64,000 nucleotides of DNA from Pyrinomonadaceae bacterium (GCA_035248785.1 DATFHD010000100.1:328-64327); one strand, 5' to 3'. Positions 20,023-47,293 are shown, counted from the stretch's first letter. The notes: generated from the letters alone by a model not told the origin. Numbers and translations: made by a program.

Positions 20023-21474
20023 GTGGAAGAAGTCAGAGCCGACATCGCCCCCGAGGAGTTCAGGCGCGAGGAGGAGAAGGTCGAGGGGCGGAGCGCCGTC
20101 TTCAGGAAGGAGCTGGGGCTCTGGGATTTGGTGCTGACGCAGATCGTCTTCGTCGTCGGCACCATCTGGGTCGGGACGGCGGCGAAGCTCGGCGACGAGC
20201 AGCTCTTCTTCTGGCTGCTCGCCATCGCCACCTTCTACCTGCCGCTGGCGGCCGTCGTCATCTACCTCAACCGCCTGATGCCGCTCGAAGGCGGGCTCTA
20301 CCAGTGGGCGAAGTTATCTCTGGGCGAGTTCGTCGGCTTCATGGTCGCGTGGAACCTCTGGGTCTTCGCCATCCTCGTCATGTCAGGTATAGGGCTGACG
20401 GTGGTGAGGAACCTCTCGTACGCGTTCGCGGGCATGCGCTGGACGGCCGACAGTCATTGGTTCGTCGGCCTCTTCAGTTGCGTGATGCTCGGCGTGATGG
20501 TCTACGTCTCGACTCGCGGGCTGTCGTTGGGCAAGTGGGTACACAACGCGGGCGGGGTCTTCCTCTTGCTAGTCTTTATGGCGCTCATTATTCTGCCCTT
20601 CGTCAGCCTCTGGCGCGGGACGATTACGGAGTACCACCCCTTCGTCTTCGCGGTGCCGGCCTTCTCACTGTCGGGCATCAACATCTACAGCAAGCTCGCG
20701 ACGGGCGCGCTCACCGGCTTCGAGTACGTGGCGATACTGGCGGGCGAGTGCAGGACGCCCGCGCGCAACATCGGCCGCTCGGTCGTCATCGCCTCGCCCG
20801 TCATCGCGCTGATGTTCATACTGGGGACGAGTTCCGTGCTCGCCTTCTTCCGCCCCGAAGAGGTAGACCTCATCAGCCCCATCGCGCAGGTCTTGACGCG
20901 CGGCTTCGGACTGCTGGGGACGGGCGTGGCGAACGTCGTCTCGCTCGTCATCCTCGCGGTCGTCGGCCGGCAGGTGGCTTTGATGAGCATCTACCTGACG
21001 GCGAACGCGCGCCTGCCGATGGTCGCCGGCTGGGACGACCTCCTGCCCGCTTGGTTCACGCGCCTGCACGCGCGCTACAAGACGCCGGTCAACTCCATCG
21101 TGCTGGTCGGCGCGCTCGCGCTCGGGCTCGGGCTGCTCGGGTTGCTCGGCGTGGGGATGCAGGAGGCGTATCAACTGCTTGAGAACGCGGCCACGATCTT
21201 CTACGCGACCTCCTACGTCATCCTGTTCGCCATCCCTCTCTTCGCCGCCGCGCGTGTGGGCCTGCGCGCGCCGCTGTGGCTGAAGGCCGCGTCAGCCTCG
21301 GGGCTGCTCGTCTCGCTGCTCGGCATCGCGCTTACGATTGTCCCCATCGTGGACGTGGTGAGCCCGCTCGCCTTCGCCGCCAAGCTCGTCGCCGTCACGC
21401 TCGCCTTCAACCTCGCGGGCGTGGTGCTTTACCGTCTGGGCCGGCGCAGACAACAGAAGGTCGGCAGCGCATGA
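20023..21474 (+). CDS. APC-superfamily amino acid permease
   Basis: About 12 hydrophobic segments. [16 protein letters not shown]...[24 protein letters not shown] is typical of APC transporters. The stop overlaps the hutI start. Confidence 0.8.
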
Positions 21475-22772
21475 GTTCTGCGGAATCAAACATGGAAGCG
21501 ACGCTGGCCGTCATCAACTGCTCGCAACTCGTCACGCTCGCGGGGCCGCGGCGGCCTCGTGTAGGCGCGGAGATGCGCGAGCTTTCCATCGTCGAAGACG
21601 GCGCGATGCTCGTCCGCGGCGGACGGATTGTGCGAACCGGCGCGAGCGCGGAGATTGAGCCGCTGATTGATGCCGACTGCGAAATGTTGGACGCGGGCGG
21701 GCGCGTCCTCTTGCCCGGCTTCGTGGACGCGCACGCGCACCCGGTCTTCGCGGGCGACCGCGCCGACGAGTTCGAGAAGCGCGCGGCGGGCGTCTCTTAT
21801 CAGGAGATCGCCGCGGCCGGCGGCGGCATCCGCTCGACCGTGCGGCGTACGCGCGCGGCGTCAGAGGAAGAGTTGTTACGGGCCGCGCGCGAGCGCGAGC
21901 GCTGGTTCCTGCGCACGGGCACGACGACCGTCGAGGCGAAGTCGGGCTACGGCCTCTCGGTCGAAGACGAGTTGAAGATGCTGCGCGTCGTGCGCCGCCT
22001 GAACGAGCGCGGCACGGACGATGAGAGCGGCGTCGGCGTCAACTACGTCCCGACCTTCCTCGGGGCGCACGAGGTGCCGGACGAGTACAGGGGACGGAGC
22101 GAGGAGTACGTGCGGCTCGTCGTCGGCGAGATGCTGCCGCGCGTGGCGGCCGAAAGGCTGGCGGAGTTCTGCGACGTGTTCTGCGAGGAGCGCGTCTTCA
22201 CAATCGAAGAGTCGCGGCGGGTGCTCAAGGCGGCACGCTCTCTCGGCTTGGGCCTACGCGTCCACGCGGATCAGCTCACGCGCGGCGGCGGCGCGCTGCT
22301 CGCGGCCGAGCTGAAGGCGAAGACGGCCGACCACCTCGAACACACCGACGCCGACGGCATCGCTGCGCTCAAACGCGCGGGCGTGCAGCCGGTTCTGCTG
22401 CCCGGCTCGGTCTACGCGCTCGGCTCGCGCCGCTACCCTTCGGCGCGCGAGATGATAGAGGCGGGCTTGGGCCTAGTCCTCGCCACCGACTTCAACCCCG
22501 GCTCGTCGCCCACGCCCTCGATGACGATGATCCTCTCGCTCGCCTCGACGCAGATGCGCATGACGCCGGCCGAAGCCCTGACGGCCGCGACCGTCAACGC
22601 CGCCTACAGCCTCGAACGCGGCGGCGAGGCGGGCACGCTCGAACCGGGCAAGCGCGCCGACTTCGTCGTACACGACTGCGCCGACTACCGCGAGCTGGCC
22701 TACTTCTTCGGCGTCGAGCACGCGCACATGACTTACGTCGGCGGGCGACCAGCCTTCGCGCGGGGCGCATGA
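21471..22772 (+). CDS. hutI: Imidazolonepropionase
   Basis: [45 protein letters not shown]...[13 protein letters not shown]...HADQL...[10 protein letters not shown]. The ATG at 21471 overlaps the permease stop (ATGA); the longer track ORF from 21276 is rejected. Confidence 0.9.
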
Positions 22773-22794
22773 AAGGAGCCTCCGAAAAAAATCG

Positions 22795-22823
22795 TTGACG
22801 AGTGCGGGGTCGTCCTCTATCAT
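22795..22823 (+). promoter_or_regulatory. Strong sigma70-type promoter candidate (TTGACG, 17 nt, TATCAT)
   Basis: TTGACG at 22795-22800 and TATCAT at 22818-22823 with an exact 17-nt spacer. Confidence 0.55.
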
Positions 22824-22829
22824 CGCCTC

Positions 22830-23073
22830 AACACTGGAAAGGAGGTGATCCGAAAACATATGAGTTCTAATCACAGTGAGGTGGCTGTAGTCTCCTGAAC
22901 AGGGATTAGCACCGCACAAGCAGTAGCGAAGCCTATGGCTGTAAATCCCTGAAGCGTAGTTTACGGAGTCAAACTCCGCAGGCAGACGAAGTTCAGAGAG
23001 GCTAATCCACACAGTCCACCGAGCCATAGGAGAAAACGGGAAGAGGCCGGCGAAAGTCGGCCTCTTTTCTTCT
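22830..23073 (+). ncRNA. Structured leader or non-coding RNA upstream of modA (riboswitch-like; class not identified)
   Basis: The region is bounded by the promoter above and an intrinsic terminator (AAGAGGCCG-GCGAAAGT-CGGCCTCTT-TTCTTCT, 23041-23073) ending 12 nt before the modA ATG. It is lower in GC. Hand-found helices: CAGGGATT/AATCCCTG (22900/22943), CGGAGT/ACTCCG hairpin (~22972), CTGAAC/GTTCAG (22895/22991), and CCTATGGCT/AGCCATAGG (22932/23022, pseudoknot-like). Confidence 0.55.
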
Positions 23074-23084
23074 AAGGGCCGAAC

Positions 23085-23894
23085 ATGATGACGCAGCGGG
23101 CACCCTTGAGAATCTTATGCGCGGCGGTAACGCTCGCCGCTTTGTGCTTTTTACCGGGCTGCGCACGTCAGCCCCCGGCGAACACACAGGACAACCAGTC
23201 GGAGATAAACGTCGCGGCGGCGGCGAACCTGACGGACGCCTTCGCCGAGGTCGCGAAGCAGTTCACGGCGGAGACGGGCGTGCGTGTGGTTTACAGTTTC
23301 GGGGCCACGGCGGACTTGACGAAGCAGATAGAGAACGGCGCACCGTTCGACGTGTTCGCGTCGGCGGACGTGTCTCACGTTGACCAACTGAACGACAAAG
23401 GATTGCTCACGCCCGGCACGCGCTCCCTCTACGCGCGCGGGCGTCTCGTAATGTGGACGCCGCCCGACGCCCGCATTCAAGTGTCGAGCATCTCGGAAGT
23501 CACGCGCCCGGAGGTCGGTCACATCGCCGTCGCCAAGCCGGACGTTGCGCCTTACGGGCAGGCGGCGGTCGAAGCCTTGCGGGCGCTGAACCTTTGGGAG
23601 CGGGTGGAGCCGAAGGTCGTGTACGCGCAGAACGTGGCACAGACCAAGCAGTTCGCCTCGTCGGGGAACGCGGAAGTCGCGTTCATTCCGCTGGCGCTGG
23701 TCAAACCGAACGAGGGGCGATTTGTCGAAGTTGACGAGCGGCTGCACAAGCCGATAGACCAAGCGCTGGGCGTCGTCAAGGCGTCTGGTAAACAGGAAGC
23801 GGCCCGCCGCTTTACGGCTTTCGTACTGAGCGACAAGGGGCAGGCTATCCTCGGGCGGTTCGGTTACAGCAAGCCGAGTTCTGCCGCCCCTTGA
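23085..23894 (+). CDS. modA: Molybdate ABC transporter substrate-binding protein
   Basis: Lipoprotein-like signal (CFLPGC), then INVAAAANLTDAFAEVAKQFTAETGVRVVYSFGATADLTKQIENGAPFDVFASAD...AVAKPDVAPYGQAA. Confidence 0.85.
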   Translation: MMTQRAPLRILCAAVTLAALCFLPGCARQPPANTQDNQSEINVAAAANLTDAFAEVAKQFTAETGVRVVYSFGATADLTKQIENGAPFDVFASADVSHVDQLNDKGLLTPGTRSLYARGRLVMWTPPDARIQVSSISEVTRPEVGHIAVAKPDVAPYGQAAVEALRALNLWERVEPKVVYAQNVAQTKQFASSGNAEVAFIPLALVKPNEGRFVEVDERLHKPIDQALGVVKASGKQEAARRFTAFVLSDKGQAILGRFGYSKPSSAAP

Positions 23895-23921
23895 TGCGGA
23901 TTTTCGTCGGCGTCTCTGTTA

Positions 23922-23957
23922 GAGGGGCGGCGCTTTCCGAGCGCCGCCTCTTTCGTC
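23922..23957 (+). terminator. Intrinsic terminator after modA
   Basis: GAGGGGCGGCGC-TTTCCGA-GCGCCGCCTC followed by TTTCGTCTTC. Confidence 0.6.
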
Positions 23958-24047
23958 TTCGCCGGGTTACATTTTTATTGCACGGCCGACCTCGGTCGCC
24001 CGCGGCACTCGCGTTGCACGCGTCCCGCGAGAAGGGGGAAGAGGCCG

Positions 24048-24677
24048 ATGAATTCGTTTCGGAAACATGCACCGGGCAATACACAACGCCCCAATTCGCT
24101 CCTGAAAACCCGCGCGCACGTAGCCGGCGCCGCCGCGCTGCTGCTGACGCTGCTCCTCGTCGCGCCCTGTGCGTCGGCCGCGCCGCGTCAGAGTCAGGCC
24201 GAGGGAGCCAAGTCGCGCGACGGGCAGGCGCAGACGGCCGCGCCCGAAAAGACTGAGAACGGCGCGCGTGGTGCTGCCGAAAAGACTGAGAACGGGGCGC
24301 GGGGCGGCGCCGAGGCGTCGGCCGCCGACCCGAAGATTCCTGTGCGCGTCACGCGCGTCAACACGCCGGACGGGCCGGCGGTCGTCGCGACCATCGGCGA
24401 GTTCCCCGAAGATTTGAACGAGGCCGGGCAGGACTTCCTCAAGCGCGAGTTCTTCGAGCACTTCGCCTCGGACGTGCTGGGCCTCGGCGACTCGGGCGAG
24501 GAGCGCGCGACGCTGAAGGTCGCGATGCTGCCGCAGGAGAAGGAGAATCAGCGCGAGGGCGACTTCCGTCTGGGTAAGGTCTCGGGCCACATGGTCGTGC
24601 TGGTCGAGAAGCGGCGCGTACTGATCGCCTGCACCTTCTCGGAGACCGAGGAGGCGCCGCGGCTCTTGGCCGAGTAG
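24048..24677 (+). CDS. Secreted hypothetical protein with a 33-nt internal duplication
   Basis: Signal-like AGAAALLLTLLLVAPCASA. Duplicated PEKTENGARGAAEKTENGARGG (nt ~24244-24310). Confidence 0.6.
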   Translation: MNSFRKHAPGNTQRPNSLLKTRAHVAGAAALLLTLLLVAPCASAAPRQSQAEGAKSRDGQAQTAAPEKTENGARGAAEKTENGARGGAEASAADPKIPVRVTRVNTPDGPAVVATIGEFPEDLNEAGQDFLKREFFEHFASDVLGLGDSGEERATLKVAMLPQEKENQREGDFRLGKVSGHMVVLVEKRRVLIACTFSETEEAPRLLAE

Positions 24678-24689
24678 GCAACAGAAAAG

Positions 24690-24890
24690 TGATAGTTCGG
24701 GGAAACGCCCGGCAAGGTTTCCCTCTAGACTCCTTCACATCCAAGGGGTTGTAAGGTGGGTTTCGGGGGAACGCCCACCTTACTACTAAAGCTAAGGGCC
24801 TTGTCCTAGTCGTTTGGGGGAGCGACGGGACGGGGCTCTTAGCTTTTGGACAAGATTTCGGGGGAAGTGTACGGCGGGCGGGCGCGGAAA
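24690..24890 (+). ncRNA. Possible small RNA or 3' UTR element displaying four UUYGGGGRA motifs
   Basis: TTCGGGGAA at 24695, TTTCGGGGGAA at 24760 (in the loop of AAGGTGGG/CCCACCTT, 24752-24780), TTTGGGGGAG at 24812 (in the loop of GTCG/CGAC within AAAGCTAAG/CTTAGCTTT, 24788-24845), and TTTCGGGGGAA at 24855. The strand is not established. Confidence 0.3.
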
Positions 24891-24894
24891 AAGC

Positions 24895-24924
24895 TGAGGG
24901 CGCGATGTCGCGACATCGCGCCCT
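24895..24924. terminator. Bidirectional intrinsic terminator between convergent genes
   Basis: Perfect 14-bp stem GAGGGCGCGATGTC-GC-GACATCGCGCCCTC, flanked by AAAAAGCT upstream and CTTTT downstream. Confidence 0.75.
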
Positions 24925-24951
24925 CGAACTTTTACACGAACTGGCGAAACC

Positions 24952-25275
24952 TTAGTTGTGGTTGTTCGTGTTGGCGCCGCGGTTGCTGTTGGCGCTGTTG
25001 GTGTTGGTGCCGGCGTTGGTGTTGCGGGTCATGTTGCCGTTCATGTTGCCCGCGTTGCTGTTGCCCGCGTTCATGTTACCGGCGTTGGTGTTGCCCGCGT
25101 TCGTGTTGCTGCCGGCATTCGAGTTGACGACGGTGATGTTGGCGTTGCCAACGGTCACATTGGCGTTGTTCGCGTTGGCGTTGCTGGCGTTCATGTTGTT
25201 GGTGTTGTCACCACCGCCACAGGCCGAAAGGCTCGCGACGCCGGCCAACGCCAGAAGTGCTAAAGTCTTGCGCAT
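24952..25275 (-). CDS. Asn-rich low-complexity lipoprotein
   Basis: MRKTLALLALAGVASLSAC (lipobox), followed by ~85 residues dominated by N, A, G and T (NAGSNTNAGNTNAGNMNAGNSNAGNMNGN...). A promoter-like TAGACA, 17 nt, TATAGT lies on the minus strand at 25353-25325. Confidence 0.7.
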   Translation of the reverse strand: MRKTLALLALAGVASLSACGGGDNTNNMNASNANANNANVTVGNANITVVNSNAGSNTNAGNTNAGNMNAGNSNAGNMNGNMTRNTNAGTNTNSANSNRGANTNNHN

Positions 25276-25575: not shown

Positions 25576-26295
25576 TCAGGGGCGCGCGGGCGGTTTCGCC
25601 GGCTGCGTGGTGTCGCCCGCGGGCGTGCGCTCCGAAGGCAGGATGTTCGCCGGGTTCGGCTTGTCAGGCGAGGTGTGGGTGTGAACGATCTTCCAAGCCG
25701 TGCCTATCTTCTGGTAGACGATTGTCAGGCGCCCCGTCGCATGCTCGGGCTGGCCGTCGGCGGTCTGCGACTGCTCCCAGAGGCACGTGACGAGCGCCGC
25801 CGTCGGCCCCAGAGTCTTCACGCGCACGTCGCGCACGTCGAGTTTGACGTCCGAGATTTTCGCGTACAGGCTCTCGCGGTTGCTGCGCGCCTGCTCCCAA
25901 CTCTTCGTCACCGTGCCGTTGTTGTTGAAGACTGAGAGCTGCGGCGAGTTCCAGTAGAGCGACATGACGGCGTTGGCGTCGGCGCGGCGTATGCCGTCCA
26001 CGAGCGAGTCGAAAGCCTCGCGGACGGCCGCTGACTCCGTGGCCGCGGGCGTAGTCCGCGTGGAGGCGGCGCGGCGTGTGCCCGCGCCGGTCGTCGTCCC
26101 TTCGGTCTGCGCGCCGGTCGTCTCCTGCGCGGGCTGCGTCGGTTTGGGCGTCGCGGAGGGCGTCGCGCGGGTATTCGCGCGGCGGCCGGTCGTCCCCATC
26201 CTGCCCGCGGACGCGTTCGTGTTCGTGTTCTGCGCGACGGCGGCCGGCGCGAGCGCGGCGGCGAGAGTCGCGGCGAAGAGAAGTCTTTTAATCAT
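25576..26295 (-). CDS. Secreted protein with a Thr/Ala-rich linker and a C-terminal DUF4440/SnoaL-like domain
   Basis: Signal MIKRLLFAATLAAALAPAAVAQ. C-terminus AVREAFDSLVDGIRRADANAVMSLYW...GRLTIVYQKIGTAWKIVHTHTS. Confidence 0.7.
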   Translation of the reverse strand: MIKRLLFAATLAAALAPAAVAQNTNTNASAGRMGTTGRRANTRATPSATPKPTQPAQETTGAQTEGTTTGAGTRRAASTRTTPAATESAAVREAFDSLVDGIRRADANAVMSLYWNSPQLSVFNNNGTVTKSWEQARSNRESLYAKISDVKLDVRDVRVKTLGPTAALVTCLWEQSQTADGQPEHATGRLTIVYQKIGTAWKIVHTHTSPDKPNPANILPSERTPAGDTTQPAKPPARP

Positions 26296-28739: not shown

Positions 28740-28830
28740 TGGCGGAGATGGCAGGATTCGAACCTGCGATAGGCTTTTGACCTATAACGGTTTAGCAAAC
28801 CGCCGCCTTCAGCCACTCGGCCACATCTCC
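28740..28830 (-). tRNA. tRNA-Ser (anticodon GCU)
   Basis: Hand-folded: GGAGATG TG GCC GAGTGGCTGAA GGC G GCGGT TTGCTAA ACCGT, a long variable arm TATAGGTCAAAAGCCTATC, GCAGG TTCGAAT CCTGC CATCTCC G CCA. The CCA is encoded. Confidence 0.9.
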
Positions 28831-47207: not shown

Positions 47208-47293
47208 TGGCGGAGGGGACAGGACTCGAACCTGCAAGCGCGTTAGCGCGGTAGTTTTCAAGACTACTGCCTTACCAATTAGGCTACCCCTCC
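47208..47293 (-). tRNA. tRNA-Ser (anticodon UGA)
   Basis: Hand-folded: GGAGGGG TA GCC TAATTGGTAA GGC A GTAGT CTTGAAA ACTAC, a long variable arm CGCGCTAACGCGCTT, GCAGG TTCGAGT CCTGT CCCCTCC G CCA. Confidence 0.9.

What the first reader, a model, noticed from the sequence alone, without database searches (positions are those of the whole stretch)
22795..23084. Promoter-to-terminator structured RNA directly upstream of modA (riboswitch candidate, possibly molybdenum-cofactor class)
Seen: a near-consensus promoter (TTGACG, 17 nt, TATCAT) is followed by ~210 nt of lower-GC sequence with several long-range complementary pairs. These are 22900-22907/22943-22950, 22895-22900/22991-22996, a 6-bp hairpin near 22972, and 22932-22940/22ions 23022-23030, which would form a pseudoknot. 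A clean intrinsic terminator follows at 23041-23073, and its U-tract ends 12 nt before the modA ATG. modA has no obvious SD of its own.

Established knowledge: Moco (and Tuco) riboswitches commonly precede molybdate transport and molybdopterin biosynthesis genes and work through terminator or SD-sequestering platforms.

Inference: this is ligand-controlled attenuation of modA. I cannot verify the Moco consensus from memory, and the element is longer than I would expect for a typical Moco aptamer. It could instead be an independent sRNA or a different or undescribed aptamer class.
Basis: partly seen in the sequence, partly recalled or inferred. Interest (0 to 1): 0.62.

Follow-up and report, generated by a model that had tools for sequence, protein, structure and literature searches.

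The report
Conserved small RNA with mini-ORF
The structured RNA upstream of modA is not a molybdenum riboswitch but a stand-alone, highly expressed and strongly conserved small RNA gene of soil Acidobacteria that carries an unusually strong ribosome-binding site and an 11-12-codon reading frame, and it is a distant relative of an uncharacterised actinobacterial sRNA (Ms_IGR-5).

Summary
The riboswitch interpretation fails. No Moco or other riboswitch model matches even permissively. None of 32 modA relatives carries the element. Among ~105 homologous elements from soil metagenomes, modA is the downstream gene only here. The element is an independent gene with a conserved TTGACG-17-TATYAT promoter and its own terminator. 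It usually lies after hutI and is assembled in at least 17 metatranscriptome runs. Its first 58 nt are nearly invariant. They hold a 15-nt complement to the 16S rRNA tail (-25.9 kcal/mol; best ordinary gene in the window -13.0), an A/U-rich spacer, an AUG and an always-intact 11-14-codon ORF. The ORF's 3' half forms one strand of the RNA's closing helices. Most relatives, but not the window's subtype, also carry an internal anti-SD that can sequester the SD. Family members match Rfam Ms_IGR-5 over its full length below threshold (best 39.5 bits, E = 5e-6; cutoff 45). The most likely mechanism is a ribosome-engaging, possibly translated sRNA. Its function is unknown.

The parts
22795..22823 (+). 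Sigma-70-type promoter: -35 TTGACG (22795-22800), 17-nt spacer, -10 TATCAT (22818-22823)
   Evidence: Conserved in 90/92 distinct homologues (TTGACG in 81, spacer 17 in 78, -10 TATTAT/TATCAT/TATGAT).
22830..22830 (+). Transcription start (+1 A of AACACUGG)
   Evidence: Inferred from the promoter geometry. Sequence conservation in relatives begins at 22829/22830. In homologue L033 a 226x metatranscriptome contig has the sequencing adapter abutting the equivalent A.
22830..22887 (+). Nearly invariant 58-nt 5' domain (P1 hairpin 22832-22849/22860-22878), holding the SD, spacer, AUG and first 9 codons
   Evidence: It stays ~92% identical where the adjacent HutI is only 60-70% identical and the RNA middle is 52% (19 of the 58 nt were fixed by the search pattern).
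22836..22850 (+). Extended Shine-Dalgarno GGAAAGGAGGUGAUC: 15 contiguous pairs with the canonical 16S rRNA 3' tail
   Evidence: Duplex -25.9 kcal/mol, against a best of -13.0 (median -8.0) among 42 long ORFs of the window. The 14-mer is unique in the window.
22860..22898 (+). Mini-ORF AUG..UGA, 12 codons (MSSNHSEVAVVS)
   Evidence: Intact in all 118 family members (11-14 codons). TGA, TAG and TAA are all used at the same site, never TGG. The 3- and 6-nt insertions are in frame. Translation was not shown here.
22880..22900 (+). 5' strands of closing helices P2 (22880-22888) and P2b (22889-22900); these are codons 7-13 of the mini-ORF
   Evidence: Pair with 23011-23020 and 22991-23003. Family-wide 98.7% paired; P2b has 38 double-sided compensatory cells.
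22901..22990 (+). Variable apical part of the rod (helices 22901-10/22941-50, 22913-17/22923-28, 22959-69/22973-83); replaced or shortened in other subgroups
   Evidence: (contigs skipping 22910-22976).
22932..22940 (+). Pseudoknot strand 1 (CCUAUGGCU), in an apical loop
   Evidence: Pairs with 23022-23030; 93% of cells paired in 8 subgroup-C sequences, with two positions changed on both sides.
22991..23020 (+). 3' strands of P2b/P2 with the conserved internal-loop motif GGCUAAUCCACACAGUCCACC (23000-23020)
   Evidence: Invariant or near-invariant in 66 sequences. The same motif is in the Ms_IGR-5 consensus (GCgAAUuCCccGcAGuCACC).
23022..23030 (+). Pseudoknot strand 2 (AGCCAUAGG), in the 3' tail; specific to subgroup C
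23038..23073 (+). Intrinsic terminator (stem 23038-51/23056-69, then U-run)
   Evidence: Stems covary across the family. Metatranscriptome depth falls from 100-600 over the RNA to 0-3 over modA.
21471..22772 (+). hutI (imidazolonepropionase), the conserved upstream neighbour; not part of the RNA
   Evidence: TIGR01224, 454 bits. The same gene lies upstream and co-oriented in 67 homologous loci.
23085..23894 (+). modA, a lineage-specific downstream neighbour; not part of the family
   Evidence: TIGR01256, 221 bits. It is downstream of the element only in the window and in one closely related metagenome contig (X3 1485-nt contig).

Best explanation
The element is an independently transcribed, abundant small RNA gene (+1 about 22830; terminator 23038-23073; about 240 nt). 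It belongs to a large family in Pyrinomonadaceae/Blastocatellia-type soil Acidobacteria that is distantly related to the actinobacterial sRNA Ms_IGR-5. It is not a modA leader.

Shown here:
- It has its own conserved promoter and terminator.
- It keeps a conserved position after hutI whatever the downstream gene is.
- It is expressed in many metatranscriptomes.
- Its helices and the subgroup-specific pseudoknot are conserved.
- Its 58-nt 5' module is nearly invariant.

Inferred: the 5' module is a very strong ribosome-binding site. It has a 15-nt complement to the 16S tail, an A/U-rich spacer and an AUG, followed by an 11-12-codon ORF. Codons 7-13 are one strand of closing helices P2/P2b, and the AUG pairs with part of the SD in P1. 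Ribosome binding and RNA folding are therefore mutually exclusive. The RNA most likely acts by engaging 30S subunits or ribosomes, as a translated mini-ORF RNA or dual-function sRNA.

In subgroups A and B an internal 16S-tail mimic gates this by sequestering the SD. The window's subgroup C lacks that gate and has a 3'-tail pseudoknot instead. In this genome modA sits 12 nt after the terminator with no promoter of its own. It can therefore be transcribed only by read-through from upstream, which makes the sRNA terminator an incidental and probably constitutive damper of modA.
For: Independent gene:
- The promoter is the only sigma-70-like site in 22000-24200 and is conserved in 90/92 homologues.
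- Conservation starts at +1 and ends before non-homologous but covarying terminators.
- An adapter junction falls exactly at the predicted +1 in a homologue.
- At least 17 RNA runs hold its words.
- RNA depth is 100-600 against 0-3 over modA.

Not linked to modA.

Structure:
- z = -6.3.
- 98.7% paired family-wide with 74 compensatory cells.
- Subgroup C is 86.8% paired, and its pseudoknot 93%.

Ribosome module:
- SD duplex -25.9 kcal/mol against at most -13.0 for 42 ORFs.
- The GGAGG-to-AUG spacer is 11-16 nt and varies by single nucleotides, while insertions within the conserved body of the ORF (+3 and +6 nt) are in frame; one +1 insertion lies just before the stop.
- All three stop codons are used at one site.
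- All 118 members have an intact ORF.

Anti-SD gate:
- Median -20.8 kcal/mol, z = -4.3, in 33/37 A members; 18/22 B members; 0/7 C members.
- It is the MFE fold in A members.

Homology to Ms_IGR-5:
- Full-length hits of 39.5, 34, 32, 30.7, 26.9, 26.8 bits (E down to 4.7e-6).
- Ms_IGR-5 homologues show ribosome footprints in M. abscessus and M. smegmatis (PMC4974804).
Against: - Translation or 30S binding was not observed here; all support is sequence-based.
- The 5' domain is invariant even at synonymous sites, while codons 2-3 change freely. The peptide sequence is therefore not what is conserved, and an RNA-only role for the 'SD' remains possible, for example as a helix strand against the internal anti-SD or as a seed.
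- The spacing from the GGAGG core to the AUG (13-14 nt) is longer than the classical optimum.
- A 15-nt SD is expected to slow ribosome clearance rather than favour peptide output (established knowledge from E. coli work).
- The homologue set was collected with an exact 19-nt pattern inside the ORF, so NHSEVA invariance is partly ascertainment.
- Some metatranscriptome contigs have adapters abutting GGAGG/GGUGAU. If these are real 5' ends, they would remove part of the SD.
- All Rfam hits are below the gathering score, and the window's own sequence scores only 15.5 bits.
Confidence: 0.6

Rival explanations
1. It is a purely non-coding regulatory sRNA. The purine-rich 5' stretch is not used as an SD. 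It is a structural strand (pairing with the internal pyrimidine-rich segment in subgroups A and B) or a seed for pyrimidine-rich targets, and the mini-ORF is incidental.
For: Nucleotide-level invariance includes synonymous positions, and residues 2-3 are freely exchangeable. A 12-21-nt contiguous internal complement to the 5' domain is present in A and B and is the MFE fold there. The SD is partly paired in P1 in the window's RNA (P unpaired 0.24).
Against: The AUG is invariant at a fixed distance from the SD. The ORF is intact in 118/118 members. All three stop codons are interchanged at one site without UGG. The 3- and 6-nt insertions in the ORF are in frame (the one 1-nt insertion lies next to the stop), whereas 1-2-nt indels are common in the spacer. 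Subgroup C and short variants such as L062 lack the internal complement yet keep the 5' module unchanged. Ribosome footprints are reported on the actinobacterial homologue (PMC4974804).
Confidence: 0.28
2. It is a cis-acting leader of modA, either a Moco-type or novel riboswitch or a leader-peptide attenuator, that controls read-through of the terminator at 23038-23073.
For: The terminator ends 12 nt before modA, and no promoter-like site lies between them. A short ORF precedes a terminator, as in classical attenuators. One closely related metagenome contig shares the RNA-modA arrangement.
Against: There is no Moco or other riboswitch hit even at E<=10. modA in 32 relatives lacks the element. 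The element is followed by unrelated genes in ~105 loci, 13 of them on the opposite strand. No alternative pairing competing with the terminator appears in the MFE or centroid folds. The RNA accumulates far above modA in metatranscriptomes.
Confidence: 0.03
3. It is a protein-sequestering RNA of a known type, either a 6S-like RNA polymerase mimic or a CsrB/RsmZ-like CsrA sponge.
For: It is abundant, about 180-240 nt and rod-shaped. Several GGA motifs are present (CUGGAAAGGAGG, CAGGGAU, ACGGAG, AUAGGAG).
Against: There is no hit to 6S or Csr/Rsm families at E<=10. The rod has no large central bubble, and the most conserved part is a 5' extension outside the rod. The GGA motifs are not presented in repeated hairpin loops. 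Presence of CsrA was not examined.
Confidence: 0.05

Closest known systems
Ms_IGR-5 (Rfam RF02471), an actinobacterial sRNA first found in Mycobacterium smegmatis
   Same: It is a promoter-to-terminator sRNA of similar size. The 5' start ACACnnGGAAGGAGGUGnUCC is shared, as are GUGAGGUGGCUG about 20 nt further on, the closing helix, the AAUyCC..CAGUCACC 3' motif and the terminator. Family members align to the full model at up to 39.5 bits, E = 4.7e-6. It has +1 A and is expressed (bioRxiv 10.1101/2021.12.14.472595; PMC8079986; PMC8780764), and ribosome footprints are reported (PMC4974804). Its function is unknown.
   Different: The phylum differs (Acidobacteriota). Every score is below the 45-bit gathering cutoff, and the window's own copy scores 15.5 bits. 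The apical domains differ, the internal anti-SD hairpin (A/B) and the 3'-tail pseudoknot (C) are not in the Rfam model, and the genomic neighbourhood differs (hutI here; MSMEG_5794/5795 in M. smegmatis).
CC2171 (Rfam RF01867), an sRNA of Caulobacter and other Alphaproteobacteria
   Same: The 5' start cAAcaAucGAAAGGAGGUGAUCC is the same, it has a terminator, and it is a Northern-validated sRNA of unknown function (bioRxiv 10.1101/2022.01.24.477521). There are weak full-length hits (24.6, 21.2, 20.9 bits).
   Different: Scores are far below the cutoff of 75 (E 0.1-1). Only the 5' 23 nt and the terminator align convincingly. Homology is not established.
Dual-function sRNAs that also encode a small peptide (e.g. 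B. subtilis SR1/SR1P, S. aureus RNAIII/hld, E. coli SgrS/SgrT)
   Same: It is an independent, structured, terminator-ended sRNA carrying an SD-led short ORF.
   Different: The ORF here is only 11-14 codons and its variable residues are unconstrained. Neither translation nor base-pairing targets are known. The comparison is from my own knowledge, not from a test.
Moco RNA motif (Rfam RF01055)
   Same: It is a structured RNA upstream of a molybdate-transport gene and ends in a terminator, in this one genome.
   Different: There is no covariance-model match at any threshold tried, and no association with molybdenum genes in homologues.
Cis SD-sequestering elements (anti-SD strands of riboswitch expression platforms and RNA thermometers; fold-back inhibition in hok-type mRNAs)
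   Same: In subgroups A and B a distal pyrimidine-rich segment pairs with the SD and competes with a local hairpin.
   Different: The window's subgroup lacks it. No sensor domain or ligand is evident, and the controlled ORF is tiny. The comparison is from my own knowledge.

Membership tests
Moco RNA motif riboswitch (RF01055) | Match to the family covariance model at or above the gathering score | tested here: not met
   No hit in the whole window at gathering threshold, and none at E<=10 on 22700-23150 with permissive filters.
Moco RNA motif riboswitch (RF01055) | Recurrent location upstream of molybdate-transport or Moco-biosynthesis genes | tested here: not met
   modA is the downstream gene in 1 of ~105 homologous loci. 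32 modA relatives lack the element.
Moco RNA motif riboswitch (RF01055) | Ligand-dependent switching | not testable with these tools
   Needs in-line probing or reporter assays.
Ms_IGR-5 sRNA (RF02471) | Covariance-model score at or above the gathering score (45 bits) | tested here: not met
   Window 15.5 bits. Family members score 39.5, 34.0, 32.0, 30.7, 26.9, 26.8, 22.7, 20.8 and 19.5 bits.
Ms_IGR-5 sRNA (RF02471) | Full-length alignment sharing the 5' motif, GUGAGGUGGCUG, the closing helix, AAUyCC..CAGUCACC and the terminator | tested here: met
   Model positions 1-184 are aligned in all hits, with E down to 4.7e-6 for a search of 17 kb against 4227 families.
Ms_IGR-5 sRNA (RF02471) | Independent transcript with its own start (+1 A) and intrinsic terminator | tested here: met
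   For Ms_IGR-5 itself see bioRxiv 10.1101/2021.12.14.472595.
CC2171 sRNA (RF01867) | Covariance-model score at or above the gathering score (75 bits) | tested here: not met
   14.8-24.6 bits, E 0.1-1.
Leader-peptide transcription attenuator | The same downstream operon is co-transcribed and conserved across homologues | tested here: not met
   Downstream genes differ, most have their own promoter-like box, and 13 lie on the opposite strand.
Leader-peptide transcription attenuator | An antiterminator structure that competes with the terminator | tested here: inconclusive
   None appears in the MFE or centroid folds. Suboptimal and co-transcriptional folds were not explored.
6S RNA (RF00013 and relatives) | Covariance-model match, and a rod with a large central bubble closed by the 5' and 3' ends | tested here: not met
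   No hit at E<=10. The rod excludes a 50-nt 5' domain and has no central bubble.
Dual-function (peptide-encoding) sRNA | The short ORF is translated | not testable with these tools
   Only indirect evidence: extreme SD, ORF intact in 118/118 with interchangeable stop codons, and footprints on the actinobacterial homologue (PMC4974804).
Dual-function (peptide-encoding) sRNA | Base-pairing regulation of target mRNAs | not tested
   No genome of a carrier was available for target prediction.
Intrinsic (rho-independent) terminator | GC-rich hairpin followed by a U-run at the 3' end of the transcript | tested here: met
   23038-51/23056-69 plus UUUUCUUCU. Stems covary in homologues. A crude automatic test passed 53/92 homologues, and by eye nearly all qualify.

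The most novel reading that the evidence does not exclude
The RNA and its actinobacterial (Ms_IGR-5) and possibly alphaproteobacterial (CC2171) relatives form one ancient, cross-phylum class of ribosome-targeting sRNA. Its invariant 5' module uses a 15-nt anti-16S-tail sequence plus a start codon and mini-ORF to capture 30S subunits or ribosomes. A self-encoded 16S-tail mimic gates this capture. The RNA would then act as a sponge or sensor of translational capacity, the ribosomal counterpart of 6S/Ms1 RNA for RNA polymerase, rather than as a source of peptide.
Probability: 0.12. Interest if true: 0.85.

Novelty: new variant of a known kind. Interest (0 to 1): 0.55.

Why it matters
If the analysis holds, it has three consequences.

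- It removes a false riboswitch candidate.
- It identifies one of the most conserved and most highly expressed small RNAs of a dominant but poorly studied group of soil bacteria. Current Rfam thresholds miss this RNA.
- It links the RNA to Ms_IGR-5, which has been validated repeatedly in Mycobacterium and Streptomyces but never explained.

It also points to concrete shared features: an extreme SD, a start codon, a mini-ORF embedded in the closing helices, and an optional internal anti-SD. These turn "uncharacterised sRNA" into a directly testable hypothesis about ribosome engagement, and the tests can be run in the genetically tractable M. smegmatis or Streptomyces.

Tried and rejected
- **Moco or any riboswitch:** Rfam at gathering threshold on the whole window and at E<=10 on the local region gave nothing relevant.
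- **modA linkage:** blastn of the element against 32 modA loci from named genomes found nothing, and their upstream regions are short and unrelated.
- **Second copy in the window:** the only near-match to the 16S-complementary 14-mer (15546) lies inside a coding region.
- **Real sequences from other phyla:** a gapped motif scan of viral contigs gave 0 hits, and blastn of the Ms_IGR-5-like variant L062 against plasmids found no match.
- **Original Ms_IGR-5 paper (PMC3527728):** not held. A search for the M. smegmatis locus tags found no functional study.
- **3' adapter junctions as processing sites:** they fall at non-equivalent positions in two variants (window 23019 inside P2; L033 7026 inside the terminator arm), so I do not interpret them.
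- **GGAUU/AAUCC tertiary pairing:** it is complementary in all subgroups, but both strands are invariant and GGAUU also pairs locally, so covariation cannot test it.
- **Minus-strand ORF 22473-23027 (184 aa):** it overlaps hutI in antisense and the RNA, and I treat it as spurious.
- **Terminator tally:** my automatic count (53/92) under-counts because of a fixed 48-nt fold window.

Full report
**1. The observation**

- TTGACG-17-TATCAT (22795-22823) is the only sigma-70-like promoter in 22000-24200, where 0.2 are expected by chance.
- The stretch 22830-23040 is 50% G+C, between genes of 70% (hutI) and 64% (modA).
- The + strand 22830-23084 folds at -100 kcal/mol, z = -6.34, with none of 200 shuffles as good. 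The - strand gives z = -3.9.
- The quoted pairings are real. 22895-900/22991-96 and 22900-07/22943-50 belong to one long rod. The small hairpin is 22964-69/22973-78. 22932-40/23022-30 is a perfect 9-bp complement.
- A GC-rich hairpin (23038-51/23056-69) with a U-run ends about 12 nt before the modA ATG at 23085.
- The modA SD is weak (-3.9 kcal/mol).

**2. It is not a riboswitch of modA**

- Rfam 15 gives no hit in the region at gathering threshold. On 22700-23150 at E<=10 there is no Moco or other riboswitch hit, only weak sRNA hits.
- ModA (TIGR01256, 221 bits) placed the window in Pyrinomonadaceae (Acidobacteriota, Blastocatellia) through 32 loci from named genomes. None of those loci contains the element by blastn. 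Their modA upstream regions are short and unrelated.
- Words of the element are present in many soil metagenomes and metatranscriptomes.

**3. A large family of independent genes**

That gives 117 true loci plus the window (118 members), one copy each, of which about 95 are distinct full-length elements.

All share one layout: promoter, +1 at AACACUGG, invariant 5' domain, variable rod, conserved GGyCAAUCCnAACAGUyCACC motif, and an intrinsic terminator of non-homologous, covarying sequence.
- The promoter is found in 90/92 distinct elements: TTGACG in 81, 17-nt spacer in 78, -10 TATTAT/TATCAT/TATGAT.
- In relatives, similarity to the window begins at 22829/30 and stops near 23035.
- In a metatranscriptome, a 226x contig carries the sequencing adapter directly on the A of AACACUGG in homologue L033, which is the predicted +1.
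- RNA contig depth is 100-600 over the element and 0-3 over modA.
- At least 17 RNA runs from more than ten studies hold its words.

**4. Genomic context**

- In 67 loci the upstream, co-oriented gene is the same amidohydrolase as in the window. This is hutI (TIGR01224, 454 bits).
- In 57 loci the downstream gene is a ~950-aa GH18 + polysaccharide-deacetylase + GT2 protein, preceded by its own promoter-like box.
- In 13 loci the downstream gene is on the opposite strand.
- modA is downstream only in the window, and in one closely related contig of run X3.
- The SnoaL-like gene that follows the RNA in eight loci lies at 25576-26295 (-) in the window. This suggests that modA and two further ORFs were inserted here.

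The RNA therefore keeps its place by descent, not by function in cis.

**5. The 5' module**

- 22836-22850 (GGAAAGGAGGUGAUC) forms 15 contiguous pairs with the canonical 16S 3' tail, at -25.9 kcal/mol. The strongest SD I could assign to any of 42 long ORFs of the window is -13.0 (median -8.0).
- An A/U-rich spacer follows (11-16 nt after GGAGG, with single-nucleotide indels), then an invariant AUG (22860).
- The ORF is intact in all 118 members, at 11-14 codons. There are 28 distinct ORF sequences.
- TGA (14), TAG (8) and TAA (6) are interchanged at the same site, even in otherwise identical backgrounds. TGG never occurs there.
- A 6-nt and a 3-nt insertion are in frame. One 1-nt insertion near the end runs into a new stop three codons later.
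- Codons 2-3 vary freely (S/N; S/L/F/T/N), and the rest is invariant even at synonymous sites. Selection therefore acts on the RNA and on having a short ORF, not on a peptide sequence.
- Where HutI is 60-70% identical, the 58-nt module is about 92% identical, or about 89% after discounting the 19 nt fixed by my pattern. The middle of the RNA is 52% identical.

**6. Structure**

- Family-wide, P1 (5' hairpin), P2 (GGUGGCUG/CAG-UyCACC), P2b and the terminator base are 98.7% paired, against 25-44% when partners are slid. There are 74 double-sided compensatory cells, 38 of them in P2b.
- Codons 7-13 of the mini-ORF are the 5' strands of P2/P2b, and the AUG pairs with GAU of the SD in P1. A ribosome on the ORF and the folded rod therefore exclude each other.
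- There are three subgroups.
- In A (37 non-redundant members) and B (22), a contiguous internal segment (UCACUGUGA-CACCUUCUUUCC, or CUCCUCCUUUC) is complementary to the SD and to UCACAGUGA of the 5' domain. The median duplex is -20.8 kcal/mol (z = -4.3; 33/37) in A and -17.1 (18/22) in B.
- This duplex is the consensus and MFE fold in A, with SD P(unpaired) <= 0.1. It competes with a local hairpin and the rod.
- The window's subgroup C (8 sequences) has no such segment (-9.1 kcal/mol, z = +0.6).
- In the window's RNA the SD is only weakly occluded, at about 5.7 kcal/mol to open.

**7. Relation to known RNAs**

- The weak hit of the window to Rfam RF02471 (Ms_IGR-5; 15.5 bits) becomes consistent, full-length matches for other family members: 39.5 bits (E = 4.7e-6), 34.0, 32.0, 30.7, 26.9, 26.8 and lower. 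All are below the 45-bit gathering score.
- The aligned consensus shares ACACnnGGAAGGAGGUGnUCC, GUGAGGUGGCUG, the closing helix, AAUyCC..CAGUCACC and the terminator.
- Read in the same frame, the consensus gives ...GAG-GUG-GCU-GCC-CGC-UAG. This is from the consensus only and is not verified on real sequences.
- Ms_IGR-5 is a validated but uncharacterised sRNA of M. smegmatis. It is NAD-capped with +1 A and lies between MSMEG_5794 and MSMEG_5795 (bioRxiv 10.1101/2021.12.14.472595). It is expressed in Streptomyces (PMC8079986, PMC8780764) and reported to carry ribosome footprints (PMC4974804).
- RF01867 (CC2171, Caulobacter/Methylorubrum; function unknown; bioRxiv 10.1101/2022.01.24.477521) gives only weak hits of 15-25 bits.
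- I found no paper assigning a function.

**8. Mechanism**

Shown:
- It is an independent, abundant, structured RNA.
- It has an invariant 5' module.
- The helices are conserved.
- It is not linked to modA.

Inferred:
- The module is a very strong ribosome-binding site with a mini-ORF. Occupying that ORF must melt the closing helices.
- An internal 16S-tail mimic gates access in most relatives but not in the window's subtype.

I therefore favour a ribosome-engaging, possibly translated, dual-function sRNA. I put about 0.9 on "independent sRNA, not a modA riboswitch" and about 0.5 on ribosome engagement as the mode of action. A purely non-coding role for the purine-rich strand is the main rival.

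For modA in this genome, the only upstream promoter-like site is the sRNA's own. Its expression must therefore rely on read-through, which makes the terminator an incidental damper.

**9. Limits**

- The homologue set is biased by an exact 19-nt seed.
- No complete carrier genome, no stranded raw reads and no actinobacterial sequences were available.
- Adapter junctions at GGAGG/GGUGAU in two runs remain unexplained.

Noticed in passing
window 25576-26295 (-), with 23085-25275: A SnoaL/DUF4440-like secreted protein lies here. Its homologues are the opposite-strand downstream neighbour of the sRNA in 8 other loci. modA, the 209-aa secreted ORF (24048-24677) and the Asn-rich ORF (24952-25275, -) therefore look like a block inserted between the sRNA and this gene in the window's lineage.
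   Followed up: partly
window 23085-24700: modA appears to be orphan. No modB or modC-like ORF follows within about 2.5 kb. The next ORF (24048-24677) has no Pfam or NCBIfam family.
   Followed up: partly
window 24952-25275 (-): A low-complexity Asn/Thr/Gly-rich lipoprotein-like ORF (NTNAGNTNAGNMNAGN...) lies here, overlapped by several spurious ORFs in other frames.
   Followed up: no
window 28743-28830 (-) and 47211-47293 (-): Two tRNA genes with long variable arms (62-63 bits) are the only Rfam gathering-level hits in the window.
   Followed up: no
loci L037, L049, L051, L054, L114, L120, L121, L129, L143, L144 (about 20-80 nt after the sRNA terminator): A conserved promoter-like or operator box, CTTGACTWATCAACC..GCGC..CGTTATTAACATC, lies upstream of the GH18 + polysaccharide-deacetylase + GT2 gene.
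   Followed up: no
loci L119, L148, L039, L067 (just downstream of the sRNA terminator): Short tandem heptamer repeats (CAGGATT / CAGATTT) follow the terminator.
   Followed up: no
loci L009-L012, about 120-150 nt upstream of modA: A shared motif GGTCTATACCATACC lies upstream of modA in several Pyrinomonadaceae relatives. It may be a molybdate-responsive operator, and it is absent from the window.
   Followed up: no
window 22841 and 22844 (and the equivalent positions in A- and B-type homologues): Metatranscriptome contigs of two runs have the sequencing adapter abutting GGAGG.. or GGUGAU.. at high depth. These may be processed 5' ends that remove part of the SD, RT stops, or assembly artefacts.
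   Followed up: partly
window 23041-23066: The terminator hairpin is preceded by an A-rich run (GGAGAAAAC), so the scan tool calls it as a terminator on the - strand. It could act bidirectionally, although no convergent gene is nearby.
   Followed up: no
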